The notes under the pieces were generated by a model that worked only from the letters and a program-made list of their open reading frames with translations, was not told the origin of the DNA and did no database searches. Made by a program: the position numbers and the translations under genes. Below are positions 1-9,818 of a stretch of 10,866 bases of DNA, in pieces. This DNA comes from a virus. Lineage: Duplodnaviria; Heunggongvirae; Uroviricota; Caudoviricetes. The stretch spans positions 1 through 10,866 of the IMG/VR virus record IMGVR_UViG_2579778899_000010. One strand, 5' to 3'. The first letter of the stretch is position 1, and every line of letters starts with the position of its first letter.

Positions 1-115
1 CACGTTCTAAGTTTTGGACGCCTGCTATAGAGATATCGACAGCCTCAGCAACTTCTCGCAACGTCAGCTTCATCTCTAAACGGCGTGCTTTCAGTCGTTC
101 GCCTCGTGTTTTCAT
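1..115 (-). CDS. Phage repressor-like HTH (XRE/cI family) regulator, N-terminal part only; gene continues beyond the window start
   Basis: Reverse complement of 115..1 reads ATG AAA ACA CGA GGC... = MKTRGERLKARRLEMKLTLREVAEAVDISIAGVQNLER, a typical XRE helix-turn-helix. It is divergent from the cro-like gene across operator repeats. A TATGAT hexamer lies 6 nt upstream of the ATG on the minus strand. The C-terminal domain is not visible. Confidence 0.75.
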   Translation of the reverse strand, partial: MKTRGERLKARRLEMKLTLREVAEAVDISIAGVQNLER

Positions 116-138
116 ACTGTAATCATAAATGATCTTCT

Positions 139-178
139 TATAGCTGGCTATAAAATTTATTTATTATAGCTGGCTTTA
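139..178. promoter_or_regulatory. Operator/divergent promoter region: two copies of TATAGCTGGCT(A/T)TA at 139-152 and 165-178 (imperfect 6-2-6 palindromes)
   Basis: Direct reading: TATAGC-TG-GCTATA at 139-152 and TATAGC-TG-GCTTTA at 165-178, centres 26 bp apart, between the divergently transcribed repressor-like and cro-like genes. The layout is that of lambdoid OR-type operators. Confidence 0.5.
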
Positions 179-206
179 ATTGTTGTTTATTGTTTATAAT
201 AACAAC

Positions 207-1135: not shown

Positions 1136-1381
1136 ATGTTCAGGAAACCGTCGAAGCCAGAATTAAGGTATTCGGGGGTAAGAAATGAATATGTTATCTG
1201 GTGTCCAACTTGTGGTTACAGGACACGACCAGATAGTAATAAGCAGTCTGTAATTGCCGATTGGTATTTATCAAATCAGCCAGGTAATAAGCATATAGAA
1301 AATCTTTGGATTAAGCGTTACTTGGAAATCAGAGAGGGTGCGACCGTGGTCGCACAAGAAAATGAAAATAACGCCATTTAA
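1136..1381 (+). CDS. Small Cys-containing protein, putative zinc ribbon; start uncertain (1061 or 1136)
   Basis: The ORF contains WCPTCGY, and upstream FCLC if started at 1061. There is no clear SD. Its C-terminal codons (GATVVAQ) read straight through palindrome copy 1. Confidence 0.4.
   Translation: MFRKPSKPELRYSGVRNEYVIWCPTCGYRTRPDSNKQSVIADWYLSNQPGNKHIENLWIKRYLEIREGATVVAQENENNAI
1338..1355. repeat. Palindrome copy 1: GTGCGACC-GT-GGTCGCAC
   Basis: Read directly; 8-bp inverted arms around a central GT. Lies at the 1136/1362 gene junction, 6 nt before ATG 1362. Confidence 0.9.
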
Positions 1382-2607: not shown

Positions 2608-2897
2608 TGAATATCGACACCACGATAACGATCGATACGGCCCTAAATACCGGTCTGGCACTTCTCGGTTGGTTTTACATCATGTTCAGTGCGGGGAAGT
2701 GGGCGGCCTCTGTTTTTCTAAAGCAGTGGGGAAAGCGCCGCAAACAGGAAAAACGCCAGAAAGCGTTGGAGGCGTTCTATGACGCATTTGAACTTAGCCG
2801 CATTGAGCCAGGCACAACAGCCAAGATAGCGACAAAAGGCGACCTGATGATAGTGATGTTCCGACAGGAGAGAGCAGAGAAAGGTGAATCAGCATGA
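2607..2897 (+). CDS. Small membrane protein (96 aa), one hydrophobic helix
   Basis: GTG at 2607 with SD AGGAGG at 2595-2600. Hydrophobic segment LALLGWFYIMFSAGKWAASVF is followed by a basic stretch KQWGKRRKQEKRQK. The track's 2529 start has no SD. Confidence 0.5.
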   Translation: MNIDTTITIDTALNTGLALLGWFYIMFSAGKWAASVFLKQWGKRRKQEKRQKALEAFYDAFELSRIEPGTTAKIATKGDLMIVMFRQERAEKGESA

Positions 2898-3643
2898 AAT
2901 TTTCTAAATTTTCTGAGTTGGTGAATCGTATTTTGTTGAATCGTATTTTGTCCAACAACCACAGCCATCGTCGCGATATGGATGTAACAATCGTTGTTCA
3001 TTCGCCTGGCAGCATTGGTTCAACACCTTCAGTTGAGGTTCAGTCAATTCACGCTGGTTTTGATTGGGATTCCGGGAAAGTGCTTATTTTCCCATCACAG
3101 CCACTGACCACGCTAACACCAGAACAGATTACTGATATCACTGATAGTGTGCGCAAAGGTCAGTCCTGGCACGCATATCAGGAATATAAAAATCATAAAG
3201 AGCAGTTGGAAAAATTGTCGATTGAGTTGGAATCAGCCAAAAATCACATAGCAGAACTGGAAGCCAAACCTGTAAGCCAAACTTACAAGTTAACTTTTGA
3301 GCAATGGCTGGAACAGCAGCATGACAAAATTGATGTTGATTGTGGATGTGTAAGTACTGAAATGCTTATGCACTGGATAAGGGTCGCGTATGAGGCTGGC
3401 AACTATCCGGTAACTCCGGATGGTTGGATAAGCTGTAGTGATCGAATGCCTGAAAAGGGCCAGAACGTGCTTATTTCGGTGAATTTCGATAGCTCTCTGG
3501 TTGAACCGCTAATATGCTCCGCACGCTATACCGGAAGCACCTTTCGGAGCGGAGATGCAACGATTAAGCCGGGTAATGGTATTGAGCAAGCAACTCACTG
3601 GATGCCACTACCAGAACCGCCGCAGGAGTCGAAGAGTGAATAA
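2894..3643 (+). CDS. DUF551-like phage protein (249 aa)
   Basis: ATG at 2894 after AAAGGTGA. The C-terminal portion GWISCSDRMPEKGQNVLIS...HWMPLPEPP matches what I recall of DUF551. An in-frame 15-bp tandem duplication lies near the 5' end. Confidence 0.65.
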   Translation: MKFSKFSELVNRILLNRILSNNHSHRRDMDVTIVVHSPGSIGSTPSVEVQSIHAGFDWDSGKVLIFPSQPLTTLTPEQITDITDSVRKGQSWHAYQEYKNHKEQLEKLSIELESAKNHIAELEAKPVSQTYKLTFEQWLEQQHDKIDVDCGCVSTEMLMHWIRVAYEAGNYPVTPDGWISCSDRMPEKGQNVLISVNFDSSLVEPLICSARYTGSTFRSGDATIKPGNGIEQATHWMPLPEPPQESKSE

Positions 3644-3857
3644 AGCAGAGTTATTTCAGAAAATATCGGCTCTCGCGACTGAATGCCACGCTATAGCATC
3701 TGAGCTTGATGTTGGTGATGAACGAACCGAGATGTTCGAAATATACAGTGTGCTGCGCAATCTCTGTCGGCGTGGCTACGCCACTCAAGTAGGGCGAATG
3801 ACTAACCCACTACTCTCATCCTGTGATGAGGATGACTCAGATGAGGATGACGAATGA
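3636..3857 (+). CDS. Small acidic protein (73 aa)
   Basis: GTG at 3636 with GGAG upstream, overlapping the preceding stop. The product ends in the acidic tail DEDDSDEDDE. The track's longer 3555 start overlaps the previous gene. Confidence 0.45.
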   Translation: MNKAELFQKISALATECHAIASELDVGDERTEMFEIYSVLRNLCRRGYATQVGRMTNPLLSSCDEDDSDEDDE

Positions 3858-4384
3858 TGCATAAATCAGTAGCCGGTGAGTTTCAGAAGGAAGTCGATAA
3901 TACTACCGTTCTATTGGACGATATTTTAAGCATTCTCGCGCTGCTTGAGGCTGGCGATTGGTCAGAACATTGCACTAAAACAGAGCTAGGCGGTCGGCTT
4001 GAAAGAGAGATTACACGACTTATTGGTGATGCGCAGGAAGCCACTGTCACTGGCTATGAGTTAATCGCTGAAGCTTGGCGTTTGATGGATGGACAAGACC
4101 CTAAAACCAGCGATTGGCATAGCAAGGCTTCGAAGTATTTAAATTCCAATATTGTAGAAAAAGTTGATGATGACCGTATTGAGGCCGTTAAGGCTGTGTT
4201 GCGTAGACTGGCTGGCAACTCTCCGGTAACTCCGGATGGTCATATTCAGTTTTCTGTTTCACTTCCTGCAGCGTTTGGTGGAGATAAATATTTTATTGAT
4301 GGTGTATTTCAACCTTTGAGATATGAGCGTGACTGTGAAAGGGCGGTTGTGGCCGCTGGCGGTGTAGTTAATTGGGTTAAGTAA
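3854..4384 (+). CDS. Hypothetical protein (176 aa)
   Basis: ATGA overlap with the upstream gene. It shares the peptide AGN(S/Y)PVTPDG with the DUF551-like protein, encoded by a 29/30-nt identical DNA segment. Confidence 0.65.
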   Translation: MMHKSVAGEFQKEVDNTTVLLDDILSILALLEAGDWSEHCTKTELGGRLEREITRLIGDAQEATVTGYELIAEAWRLMDGQDPKTSDWHSKASKYLNSNIVEKVDDDRIEAVKAVLRRLAGNSPVTPDGHIQFSVSLPAAFGGDKYFIDGVFQPLRYERDCERAVVAAGGVVNWVK

Positions 4385-4744: not shown

Positions 4745-4987
4745 ATGGATAAAAAGGCATTGCTTTTTGAAATGATACGAAAACGGAGCGAAAAGAGCTT
4801 TTCTGATGGTGGTGATGGTTTTGTTTTCGCTTCGATGCTTTCTTTTGATGTTGGGTTAAATAGCAGAATTGTTAAAAGGATGCTTGATTCTGCTGTCCGT
4901 ACTGGACTTCTTGAGAAAGTTGATCGTGGCATAGGGAGAGAGCATAAGTATCGGGTCACACAGCAGTTTACGCAGTTAATTCATTGA
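4745..4987 (+). CDS. Hypothetical small protein, possible winged helix (80 aa)
   Basis: SD GGAGGG before ATG 4745. Last gene of the rightward early operon before the AT-rich SOS promoter region. Confidence 0.6.
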   Translation: MDKKALLFEMIRKRSEKSFSDGGDGFVFASMLSFDVGLNSRIVKRMLDSAVRTGLLEKVDRGIGREHKYRVTQQFTQLIH

Positions 4988-5008
4988 AAATTGACCGTAA
5001 AGTTTGAG

Positions 5009-5036
5009 TTTTACCCTGTAATTTTATACAGTATAA
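5009..5036 (+). promoter_or_regulatory. SOS-type promoter: -35 TTTACC (5009-5014), LexA box CTGTAATTTTATACAG (5015-5030), -10 TATAAA (5031-5036)
   Basis: CTGT-N8-ACAG with an AT-rich spacer is the E. coli LexA operator pattern. It exactly fills the 16-bp spacer between the -35-like and -10-like hexamers, 40 bp upstream of ATG 5070. Confidence 0.6.
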
Positions 5037-5069
5037 ATAACCTTTTTTAGTTAAATGGTATGAGATTTA

Positions 5070-5273
5070 ATGTCTGAAGCAGCCGTATCAACTCTTGAAC
5101 AACTCGATTCAAATTTAAGAGATATTGACGCCGTTCTGGATCTGGTTAGCGTCACCCTGGCTTCTCCAGAAGCCAGCCTACATATTGGTGAGGTTTCACG
5201 ACTCATCAACATGTCGCGAGAGATTGCCCAGCATTGTCAGCAAACTATCGCTGTTGAGCGTTCACATCATTGA
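5070..5273 (+). CDS. Small protein (67 aa) under putative LexA control; candidate SOS-induced antirepressor or induction factor
   Basis: ATG at 5070 downstream of the LexA-box promoter gives MSEAAVSTLEQLDSNLRDIDAVLDLVSVTLASPEASLHIGEVSRLINMSREIAQHCQQTIAVERSHH. SD is weak. Function is inferred from context only. Confidence 0.55.
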   Translation: MSEAAVSTLEQLDSNLRDIDAVLDLVSVTLASPEASLHIGEVSRLINMSREIAQHCQQTIAVERSHH

Positions 5274-5315
5274 TGCACACCCCGCCCTTCTGGACGGGGT
5301 AGTAAAAGAGTCTAA

Positions 5316-5603
5316 TTAATAAACAGCGCGAATATCGATGGTTGCGCCGCAGGCATGAGCATATTTAGCCAAAGTTTTCATACTTGCCCCTAAAGGATTG
5401 CTTTCCAGGCGGCTGATGGCTGACGGTCGCAACCCCATTCGTTCAGCCAGAGCTGATTTCGTTAAACCTGCTCTTTCCCTCATTTCGTATAACATTTCGA
5501 CCATCTCCAGCTCTTTGTCGGCCTCTTCATATCCTTTGACGGCTTCTGGAGTGTTGAGGAGTTTTTCTTTTACTTCGTTAAACGGGATGCCTTTCGCTTT
5601 CAT
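5316..5603 (-). CDS. HTH (XRE-family) antitoxin of a HigA-like type II TA pair (95 aa)
   Basis: Minus-strand ATG at 5603-5601 with SD AAGGAGA 7 nt upstream, overlapping the toxin stop by 1 nt. HTH segment LTKSALAERMGLRPSAISRLESN. Confidence 0.8.
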   Translation of the reverse strand: MKAKGIPFNEVKEKLLNTPEAVKGYEEADKELEMVEMLYEMRERAGLTKSALAERMGLRPSAISRLESNPLGASMKTLAKYAHACGATIDIRAVY

Positions 5604-5914
5604 CAGTTCATCTCCTTCAGGCGAGTTCTGGCGATTTCGATAGCCTTCACCGGTGTTTTCTGTGTCTTTTTTACAAATGCATGCAATAGATAAATTTCGT
5701 TACCAGTCGCGTAGGCGTACAGCGTTCTTGCGATGTTTTTATCCCCTACTCGTAGTTCAAAAAGCCCTCCACCTATTACACGGCTATGGGGCATCTTCAG
5801 TTTGTTGCCTTCCTTCTCCAGTCGCTCAATTAATCTGGTCATGCGACCTCGCAAATCATCTGGTAGTTCAAGCAGTTCATCCAGTGCTGCAGGGTGGGTT
5901 ATCACGTTAAACAT
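5603..5914 (-). CDS. RelE/ParE-superfamily toxin, HigB/Gp49-like (103 aa)
   Basis: Minus-strand ATG at 5914-5912 with GGAGG 7 nt upstream. Product MFNVITHPAALDELLELPDDLRGRMTRLIERL...GGLFELRVGDKNIARTLYAYATGNEIYLLHAFVKKTQKTP matches the RelE-fold Gp49/HigB pattern. Toxin-first order with a coupled HTH antitoxin. Confidence 0.8.
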   Translation of the reverse strand: MFNVITHPAALDELLELPDDLRGRMTRLIERLEKEGNKLKMPHSRVIGGGLFELRVGDKNIARTLYAYATGNEIYLLHAFVKKTQKTPVKAIEIARTRLKEMN

Positions 5915-6547: not shown

Positions 6548-6565
6548 GTGCGACCACGGTCGCAC
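6548..6565. repeat. Palindrome copy 2: GTGCGACC-AC-GGTCGCAC (central dinucleotide inverted relative to the other three; flanking T/A extend it to 20 bp, 6547-6566)
   Basis: Read directly. Immediately after the stop of the 6315..6542 gene and about 85 bp upstream of the intrinsic terminator. Confidence 0.9.
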
Positions 6566-9580: not shown

Positions 9581-9598
9581 GTGCGACCGTGGTCGCAC
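9581..9598. repeat. Palindrome copy 3: GTGCGACC-GT-GGTCGCAC
   Basis: Read directly. 19 nt after the stop of the 9250..9561 gene, preceded by the boxA-like string TCTCTTTG (9564-9571). Confidence 0.9.
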
Positions 9599-9800: not shown

Positions 9801-9818
9801 GTGCGACCGTGGTCGCAC
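9801..9818. repeat. Palindrome copy 4: GTGCGACC-GT-GGTCGCAC
   Basis: Read directly. Exactly 220 bp from copy 3 (start to start), 23 nt upstream of ATG 9842. Confidence 0.9.

What the first reader, a model, noticed from the sequence alone, without database searches (positions are those of the whole stretch)
5009..5273. Canonical LexA box embedded in the promoter of a 67-aa gene: candidate SOS-triggered induction factor
CTGTAATTTTATACAG (5015-5030) fits CTGT-N8-ACAG with an AT-rich centre and occupies exactly the spacer between -35-like TTTACC and -10-like TATAAA. Prophages whose repressors do not self-cleave use LexA-controlled small antirepressors (reported for Gifsy-type prophages and phage 186 Tum). 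The repressor here is truncated by the window edge, so whether it has an autocleavage domain is unknown. The 67-aa product has no motif I can name.
Basis: partly seen in the sequence, partly recalled or inferred. Interest (0 to 1): 0.6.

Follow-up and report, generated by a model that had tools for sequence, protein, structure and literature searches.

The report
SOS-controlled antirepressor of N15-like phage-plasmid

Summary
A perfect CTGT-N8-ACAG LexA box lies at 5016-5031, one base right of the stated coordinates. It sits in the promoter of a real 67-aa gene (5070-5273).

The window is not a Gifsy-type integrated prophage. It is an N15-like telomere phage-plasmid of the genus Ravinvirus, 99% identical to Escherichia phage YDC107_1.

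The 67-aa protein is 55.6% identical to an unannotated N15 ORF in the same slot, between genes 47 and 48. That ORF follows one of only two strong LexA boxes in N15. This fits antC, the LexA-repressed antirepressor that inactivates the CB repressor (Mardanov & Ravin 2007, known here only through citing papers).

The box is kept 20-40 nt upstream of the start codon in 33 of 35 distinct upstream regions (64 in all), while the protein drifts to about 33% identity.

The full-length CB repressor, read from a 99%-identical genome, has a degenerate S24 domain: Ser is replaced by Thr/Ile/Val/Ala and Lys by Gln. The N15 repressor is experimentally non-cleavable.

Verdict: a correct inference, an ordinary unannotated member of a known system, and low interest. 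No experiment on this allele exists.

The parts
1..115 (-). 5' end (38 codons) of the cB prophage repressor gene, the presumed target of the antirepressor. It is cut by the window edge.
   Evidence: The translation is identical to residues 1-38 of the 198-aa repressor of phage YDC107_1. That protein is 78% identical to N15 CB.
138..179 (.). Two CB operator-like 16-mers between cB and cro: TTATAGCTGGCTATAA at 138-153 and a one-mismatch copy at 164-179.
   Evidence: No such site occurs near antC, so antC is not under CB control. Operators of this type are described for N15 and phiKO2 in PMC4997575.
5004..5009 (+). Probable -35 hexamer TTGAGT of the antC promoter.
   Evidence: TTG sits at exactly this distance, 17 nt before TACAGT, in 32 of 35 distinct upstream regions, including relatives only about 33-40% identical. 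This is an inference; no transcript mapping exists.
5014..5033 (.). LexA (SOS) box CCCTGTAATTTTATACAGTA, with core CTGT-N8-ACAG at 5016-5031.
   Evidence: 18.4 bits. A box is conserved 20-40 nt upstream of the start codon at 17.8-26.1 bits in 33 of 35 distinct upstream regions. N15 has the equivalent box at 39562.
5027..5032 (+). Probable -10 hexamer TACAGT, lying inside the right half of the LexA box.
5057..5064 (+). Ribosome-binding region GGTATGAG. The upstream ATG at 5056 is closed at once by TGA.
   Evidence: GGTA is invariant in the alignment of five phages. The ATG at 5070 is the only start shared by all relatives.
5070..5273 (+). antC-like gene: a 67-aa antirepressor candidate predicted to fold as a two-helix hairpin.
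   Evidence: tblastn gives 55.6% identity to the unannotated N15 ORF at 39619-39807. It matches phrog_6301 at 1.8e-35 and phrog_10889 'anti-repressor' at 6.9e-8. Substitutions follow a coding pattern, 13/4/22 by codon position. AlphaFold2 gives pLDDT 89 with helices 3-29 and 33-66.
5277..5303 (.). GC-rich hairpin between the convergent antC and higA-like genes. It is a weak candidate terminator with no T-run.
   Evidence: The fold is -14.6 kcal/mol with z = -2.0. The terminator scan does not call it. N15 has a stronger hairpin at the same place.

Best explanation
The 67-aa gene is the ortholog of antC of the linear plasmid-prophage N15. In an undamaged lysogen, host LexA sits on the box at 5014-5033. 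That box covers the spacer and -10 region of the gene's own promoter, so the gene stays silent. After DNA damage, RecA-stimulated LexA self-cleavage frees the promoter. The small helical-hairpin protein is then made, binds the CB prophage repressor and stops it from holding the cB/cro operators. CB has only a dead remnant of the S24 self-cleavage domain, so it cannot respond to RecA by itself. With CB inactive, Cro, Q and the lytic genes come on. What is shown here: the box, its conservation, homology and synteny with N15, and the degenerate repressor domain. What is inferred from the N15 literature: LexA binding, the AntC-CB contact and induction.
For: The window is a Ravinvirus with N15 gene order: cB-cro-Q...gp46-gp47-[gene]-higA/higB-gp50-gp51-methylase-lysis. 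The protein is 55.6% identical (E 7e-16) to an unannotated ORF in the same N15 slot, and phiKO2 Gp47 is also a homolog. Both the window and N15 proteins hit phrog_6301 and phrog_10889 'anti-repressor'. A whole-genome N15 scan finds only two strong LexA boxes. One precedes the umuD-like gene 26 and the other (21.2 bits, at 39562) precedes this ORF. That matches published statements that N15 antC is LexA-repressed and acts on CB (PMC4488713, PMC3121763, PMC11652158). The box scores 18.4 bits and is unique in the window. In 52 related loci it is always 36-40 nt from the ATG and is the top-scoring site in 50 of them. It is also present in 5 of 7 distant syntenic relatives, about 33-40% identical, at 20-37 nt. 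The repressor's S24 match is sub-threshold at 21.3 bits. The catalytic Ser is T/I/V/A and the Lys is Gln in 18 CB variants, and no Ala-Gly site aligns. The same absence was reported for N15 and phiKO2 CB (PMC4997575). The N15 repressor was shown not to be cleaved after SOS induction (PMC10432266). No CB operator lies near the gene. Codon-position bias of substitutions shows a real coding gene.
Against: No experiment exists for this allele. I could not read the primary N15 paper, so equating N15 antC with the ORF at 39619-39831 is my inference from the LexA-box scan, synteny and recollection. Identity to the N15 protein is only 52-56% while CB is 78% identical, so specificity or strength may differ. 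Only 38 residues of the repressor are in the window; the full-length analysis uses a 99%-identical phage. The promoter fails a strict consensus scan. The position weight matrix rests on sites I recalled from memory. No database names any family member an antirepressor except one PHROG.
Confidence: 0.85

Rival explanations
1. The gene is truly LexA-controlled, but its product does another SOS-linked job rather than inactivating CB. Examples would be modulating RecA or LexA as DinI does, blocking cell division, or countering a host defence.
For: No domain is recognised by Pfam or NCBIfam. The fold is a generic helical hairpin with no significant structural match. The best PHROG hit, phrog_6301, has unknown function. 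The AntC-CB contact was not tested here.
Against: The protein is homologous and syntenic to the N15 ORF behind the only N15 LexA box other than the one preceding the umuD-like gene, and the literature assigns a LexA-controlled anti-CB antirepressor to N15. The gene always accompanies a CB repressor that lacks the catalytic dyad. It has no DinI domain and no similarity to Tum.
Confidence: 0.07
2. The main role of the SOS-inducible promoter is to drive transcription into the convergent higA/higB-like toxin-antitoxin genes (5316-5914, minus strand), giving antisense control of the module after DNA damage. On this reading the small ORF is secondary.
For: The genes converge 43 nt apart. The hairpin between them has no T-run and is not called a terminator.
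Against: The toxin-antitoxin slot varies among relatives: HigBA, HicAB or nothing. The small gene and its LexA box persist throughout. The ORF is under purifying selection and has an invariant ASPEASLH motif.
Confidence: 0.03
3. Induction goes through RecA-stimulated self-cleavage of the repressor as in lambda, so the small gene is dispensable.
For: The repressor's C-terminal half has a weak S24-like match, and RefSeq labels N15 gene 38 a 'LexA family transcriptional regulator'.
Against: The Ser/Lys dyad and the Ala-Gly site are absent in all 18 CB variants examined. Hammerl et al. report the same. Silpe et al. show the N15 repressor is non-proteolytic.
Confidence: 0.03
4. The palindrome is a chance match in AT-rich promoter DNA and LexA plays no part.
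For: 24 of 200 shuffles contain at least one CTGT-N8-ACAG.
Against: The site scores 18.4 bits, within the range of real sites. A box is present 20-40 nt upstream in 33 of 35 distinct upstream regions even though the flanking DNA and the protein diverge strongly.
Confidence: 0.02

Closest known systems
AntC of linear plasmid-prophage N15 (Mardanov & Ravin 2007, J Bacteriol 189:6333), the LexA-repressed antirepressor of CB
   Same: Same phage genus, same slot between gene 47 and the gene 48/49 toxin-antitoxin pair, and 55.6% protein identity. The LexA box sits 36-37 nt from the ATG in both. Both share the TTGNNN-17-TACAGT promoter frame and a CB repressor type that lacks the catalytic dyad.
   Different: It is a diverged allele, 52-56% identical, while its CB is 78% identical to N15 CB. 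It is shorter (67 aa against 70-75 aa) because the upstream in-frame ATG is closed by TGA. The downstream hairpin is weaker. This allele is untested.
Gp47 of Klebsiella phage phiKO2 and the unannotated ORFs of Klebsiella N15-like phage-plasmids
   Same: Same family (55-57% identity), same slot, and a conserved LexA box.
   Different: The phiKO2 box has one core mismatch (ATGT for CTGT). The Klebsiella relatives other than phiKO2 carry a second LexA-like box over the methylase start codon, which the window lacks.
Tum of coliphage 186
   Same: Same logic: a LexA box overlaps the -10 of a dedicated promoter (p95), and the product is an antirepressor that blocks CI DNA binding (record annotation; sequence).
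   Different: There is no sequence similarity. Tum is 146 aa with a DinI-like half, whereas this protein has no Pfam domain. In 186 the -10 lies in the left half of the box; here it probably lies in the right half.
GfoA/GftA antirepressors of Salmonella Gifsy prophages (Lemire et al. 2011, PMC3121763)
   Same: They are small LexA-controlled antirepressors encoded outside the immunity region that act on non-cleavable repressors.
   Different: They belong to integrated lambdoid prophages. tblastn of this protein against the phage collection at E up to 10 returned no Salmonella or Gifsy record. I did not compare the proteins directly.

Membership tests
N15 AntC family (LexA-controlled antirepressor of N15-like telomere phage-plasmids) | Sequence homology to the N15 protein | tested here: met
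   55.6% identity over 63 of 67 residues, E 7e-16. Both proteins hit phrog_6301 and phrog_10889. Twenty-two invariant columns include ASPEASLH.
N15 AntC family (LexA-controlled antirepressor of N15-like telomere phage-plasmids) | The N15 ORF used as reference is really the published antC | tested here: inconclusive
   The primary paper is not held. Supporting points: N15 has only two strong LexA boxes, and the one not preceding the umuD-like gene precedes this ORF. Citing papers say antC is a separate LexA-controlled locus outside immA and immB. I also recall its map position.
N15 AntC family (LexA-controlled antirepressor of N15-like telomere phage-plasmids) | Conserved genomic slot in an N15-like genome | tested here: met
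   It lies between the gp47 homolog and the higA/higB-like pair, as in N15, phiKO2 and YDC107_1. The same slot holds it in distant relatives.
N15 AntC family (LexA-controlled antirepressor of N15-like telomere phage-plasmids) | LexA operator overlapping the gene's promoter | tested here: met
   The box at 5014-5033 scores 18.4 bits and is conserved in 33 of 35 distinct upstream regions. Actual LexA binding was not tested.
N15 AntC family (LexA-controlled antirepressor of N15-like telomere phage-plasmids) | Partner repressor of CB type without self-cleavage residues | tested here: met
   CB from a 99%-identical phage is 78% identical to N15 CB, with Ser replaced by Thr, Lys by Gln, and no Ala-Gly. 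The window itself holds only 38 residues.
N15 AntC family (LexA-controlled antirepressor of N15-like telomere phage-plasmids) | The protein binds CB and induces the prophage after SOS | not testable with these tools
   This needs pull-down or two-hybrid assays and induction assays.
186 Tum / DinI-fusion antirepressors | Sequence similarity to Tum, including a DinI-like C-terminal half | tested here: not met
   BLASTP finds no alignment at E up to 100, and there is no Pfam hit.
Gifsy GfoA/GftA antirepressors | Sequence similarity to GfoA or GftA | tested here: inconclusive
   tblastn against 50,697 phage records at E up to 10 returned no Salmonella or Gifsy record. I did not verify that Gifsy records are in the collection, and I did not compare the proteins directly.
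Self-cleaving S24 repressors (lambda CI / LexA type), for the partner repressor | Ala-Gly cleavage site plus catalytic Ser and Lys | tested here: not met
   The literature agrees.

The most novel reading that the evidence does not exclude
AntC alleles may form specificity groups. This allele is only 52-56% identical to N15 AntC although the repressors are 78% identical, and one and the same CB (99.5-100%) is found with AntC alleles that are only 79% identical. So AntC may evolve fast either to avoid or to exploit cross-induction between co-resident N15-like phage-plasmids. The dead S24 domain of CB may be retained as the docking site for the helical hairpin, a pseudo-protease turned antirepressor receptor.
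Probability: 0.25. Interest if true: 0.45.

Novelty: new member of a known kind. Interest (0 to 1): 0.2.

Why it matters
The biology is not new: SOS induction through a LexA-repressed antirepressor was shown for N15 in 2007. The practical value is in annotation. The family has no Pfam or NCBIfam model, every database name found is 'hypothetical protein', and the gene is often not called at all in Klebsiella phage-plasmids (213 PLSDB plasmids carry it). Yet it is probably the switch that decides whether these widespread phage-plasmids of E. coli, Klebsiella and Enterobacter enter lytic growth under DNA-damaging antibiotics. The alignment and the conserved box-to-ATG architecture found here would allow a simple annotation rule.

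Tried and rejected
- The primary paper (Mardanov & Ravin 2007) could not be opened by DOI or PMC id. Only two library papers mention antC together with N15, and neither gives coordinates.
- Pfam and NCBIfam gave nothing for the 67-aa protein.
- Two word-indexed protein searches and a cluster look-up gave no informative names.
- A profile search of 1.84 billion representatives found only 12 clusters, so the family is narrow.
- Foldseek against the PDB gave only generic helical hairpins with E above 1, so no structural inference was drawn.
- The strict promoter and terminator scan found nothing at the locus.
- Rfam found nothing in the window.
- The scan of species-representative genomes yielded only 2 loci; IMG/VR gave 50.
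- tblastn with a distant relative (P0026) found no further phage records.
- The correlation between AntC and CB identity (Spearman 0.91) is not taken as evidence of co-evolution, because both genes share the same genome phylogeny.

Full report
**1. What is in the sequence**

- The stretch 4980-5040 reads ...GTTTGAGTTTTACC CTGTAATTTTATACAG TATAAATAACC....
- The bare pattern is only mildly improbable: shuffles give a mean of 0.14 matches, and 24 of 200 contain at least one.
- I built a 20-position weight matrix from 29 E. coli LexA sites. The sites were recalled from memory, so the scale is approximate.
- With that matrix, 5014-5033 (CCCTGTAATTTTATACAGTA) scores 18.4 bits. That is higher than 12 of the 29 genuine sites and 10 bits above the next best site in the window, and 2 of 200 shuffles reach it.
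- The ORF at 5070-5273 encodes 67 aa.
- Window 1-115 on the minus strand encodes the first 38 residues of a repressor.

**2. What the element is**

- The region is 99% identical to Escherichia phage YDC107_1 and PhiR46_1. YDC107_1 is classified in the genus Ravinvirus, the N15 group.
- The gene order is that of N15: cB, cro (P22_Cro), Q antiterminator, exonuclease, gp46-like, gp47-like, the 67-aa gene, a convergent HigA/HigB-like pair (HTH_3 / Gp49), gp50/gp51-like, an N6 methylase and lysis genes.
- In 5,426 complete E. coli genomes the locus occurs in 16, always on a plasmid and never on a chromosome.
- It is also found on 213 PLSDB plasmids, mostly from Klebsiella.
- So this is a linear plasmid-prophage of the N15 type, not a Gifsy-like integrated prophage.

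**3. Homology to N15**

- tblastn of the 67-aa protein finds N15 at 39619-39807 with 55.6% identity and E 7e-16. That stretch carries no annotation and lies between gene 47 and gene 48.
- The same search also finds phiKO2 Gp47 and several Klebsiella and Enterobacter phages.
- N15 has CTGTGTTTATATACAG at the equivalent upstream position.
- The window protein and the N15 ORF both match phrog_6301 (1.8e-35 and 1.5e-25) and phrog_10889, annotated 'anti-repressor' (6.9e-8 and 1.4e-8).
- Scanning the whole N15 genome with the matrix gives only two strong sites. One is at 21658 (24.7 bits), just upstream of the umuD-like gene 26. The other is at 39562 (21.2 bits), upstream of this ORF. The next best site scores 9.2 bits.
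[quoted passage not shown] They also state that antC is a separate locus outside immA and immB and that it is LexA-controlled (PMC4488713; PMC3121763; PMC11652158).
- I could not open the primary paper. Equating antC with the ORF at 39619-39831 is therefore an inference, though a strong one.

**4. Conservation of the operator**

- Five phages aligned over the upstream region share an invariant TATACAGTAT and CTGT/ATGT, while the flanks diverge.
- In 52 loci from IMG/VR and GTDB there are 22 distinct box/protein combinations. The best matrix hit upstream is always 36-40 nt from the ATG and scores 17.8-26.1 bits. It is the top-scoring site in 50 of the 52 loci; in the other two it is 0.3 bits behind a second box.
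- A profile search of 1.84 billion representative proteins found only 12 clusters, so the family is narrow.
- The seven distant clusters (about 25-40% identical) all sit in the same slot of N15-like genomes.
- Six of those seven have a 20.6-26.1-bit box upstream of the gene. In five it lies 20-37 nt from the ATG and in one it lies 71 nt away. The seventh (L063/L064) has none.
- Counting distinct upstream regions, 33 of 35 have the box 20-40 nt upstream, and 32 of 35 also fit the TTGNNN-17-TACAGT frame.

**5. The gene is real and starts at 5070**

- Substitutions against the 79%-identical allele fall 13/4/22 on codon positions 1/2/3, and the other comparisons show the same bias.
- The family alignment has 22 invariant columns, including D-x-D-A and A-S-P-E-A-S-L-H.
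- Many relatives have an in-frame ATG five codons upstream (MVYDSM...). In the window that ATG (5056) is followed at once by TGA, and the Klebsiella relatives lack it. The ATG aligned with 5070 is therefore the shared start.
- The invariant GGTA upstream of it is probably part of the ribosome-binding region.

**6. The promoter**

- The strict consensus scan finds no promoter here.
Other clades have AAACGC, ATTTCC and similar hexamers at that position.
- By contrast, TTGNNN followed by 17 nt and TACAGT is present in 32 of 35 distinct upstream regions, including distant relatives.
- TACAGT is part of the LexA box, so its conservation is not independent evidence. The TTG at a fixed distance is independent evidence.
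- I therefore prefer -35 at 5004-5009 and -10 at 5027-5032.
- Under either reading the LexA box covers the spacer and/or the -10, which is the classical occlusion geometry. It is also seen at p95 of phage 186, where the annotated LexA site overlaps the -10.

**7. The repressor**

- The full-length CB of YDC107_1 (198 aa) has the same first 38 residues as the window and is 78% identical to N15 CB.
- Its S24 match is partial and below threshold: 21.3 bits against a cut-off of 23.3.
- I aligned it with LexA, lambda CI and UmuD. The position of the catalytic Ser is Thr in this allele and Ile, Val or Ala in the others. The catalytic Lys is Gln in all 18 variants, and no Ala-Gly site aligns.
- Hammerl et al. 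2016 report the same absence for N15 and phiKO2 CB.
- Silpe et al. 2023 show experimentally that the N15 repressor is not proteolysed after SOS induction.
- CB operator-like sites occur only at 138-153 and 164-179, not near the small gene.

**8. The protein**

- AlphaFold2 with a 13-sequence alignment gives a confident two-helix hairpin: pLDDT 89, helices 3-29 and 33-66. The invariant SPEASLH motif lies at and just after the turn.
- Foldseek against the PDB gives only generic hairpins with E above 1, so nothing follows from it.
- The protein has no similarity to 186 Tum and no Pfam or NCBIfam model.
- AntC diverges faster than CB. CB pairs that are 75-85% identical have AntC pairs with a median of 52% identity, and one CB (99.5-100%) occurs with AntC alleles that are only 79% identical.
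- The overall correlation (Spearman 0.91) may simply reflect shared ancestry.

**9. Mechanism**

- Best explanation (confidence about 0.85): LexA occludes the promoter in the lysogen. DNA damage removes LexA, and the hairpin protein is made. It inactivates CB without proteolysis, so Cro, Q and the lytic genes are expressed.
- Shown here: the operator, its conservation, homology and synteny, and the dead protease domain.
- Inferred from N15: LexA binding, AntC-CB binding and induction.
- The rivals are each unlikely for the reasons given in their entries. They are another SOS function, antisense control of the convergent toxin-antitoxin pair, repressor self-cleavage, and a chance palindrome.

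**10. Novelty and verdict**

This is an uncharacterised and unannotated member of the N15 AntC family.
- Interest is low (0.2).
- The residual open questions are the allele specificity of AntC for CB and where the hairpin docks on CB.

Noticed in passing
window 1338-1355, 6548-6565, 9581-9598, 9801-9818: There are four copies of an 18-bp palindrome, GTGCGACC(G/A)(T/C)GGTCGCAC, scattered over the window. The copy after the gp51-like gene is syntenic with the phiKO2 feature 'putative plasmid partitioning site'. These look like the dispersed centromere sites of N15-type plasmid prophages.
   Followed up: partly
window 138-153 and 164-179: Two CB operator-like 16-mers (TTATAGCTGGCTATAA and a one-mismatch copy) lie between cB and cro. 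No other copies occur in the window.
   Followed up: yes
window 5316-5914 (minus strand): A HigA-like (HTH_3) and HigB-like (Gp49/RelE-ParE) toxin-antitoxin pair converges on the antC-like gene. In distant relatives the same slot holds HicA/HicB or nothing, so it is a swappable cargo position.
   Followed up: partly
L008 9801-9820 (Klebsiella-type relatives; also L038-L053): A second LexA-like box, ACACTGTGAAAATAAACAGTG (17.8-20.3 bits), lies across the start codon of the N6 DNA methylase gene, about 1.8 kb downstream of antC. It is absent from the window and from N15.
   Followed up: partly
L063/L064 7890-8000; L068/L069 7900-8000: One distant relative (P0029) has no E. coli-type LexA box upstream. 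In another (P0032) the box lies 71 nt upstream. Both share a GGGGTGATT...TTACATTTGTTC stretch, which may indicate a different or additional control.
   Followed up: no
window 3394-3424 and 4210-4240: A 31-nt direct repeat, 97% identical, lies inside two different ORFs (2894-3643 and 3854-4384) and encodes AGN(Y/S)PVTPDG in both. YDC107_1 has a shorter region here, so this segment is mosaic.
   Followed up: no
window 5056-5064: The upstream in-frame ATG that gene callers use for the N15-type protein (MVYDSM...) is closed by TGA in the window (ATG GTA TGA). This gives 67 aa instead of 72-75 aa.
   Followed up: yes
whole family (databases): Every source name found for this family is 'hypothetical' or 'Gp47'. 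The gene is frequently not annotated at all in PLSDB Klebsiella plasmids or in the N15 RefSeq record, and no Pfam or NCBIfam model exists.
   Followed up: yes
L066 11955-12413: A distant N15-like relative carries a gene with an AcrIF11-type ADP-ribosyltransferase domain (PF26151) near its lysis region. It is a possible anti-CRISPR cargo.
   Followed up: no
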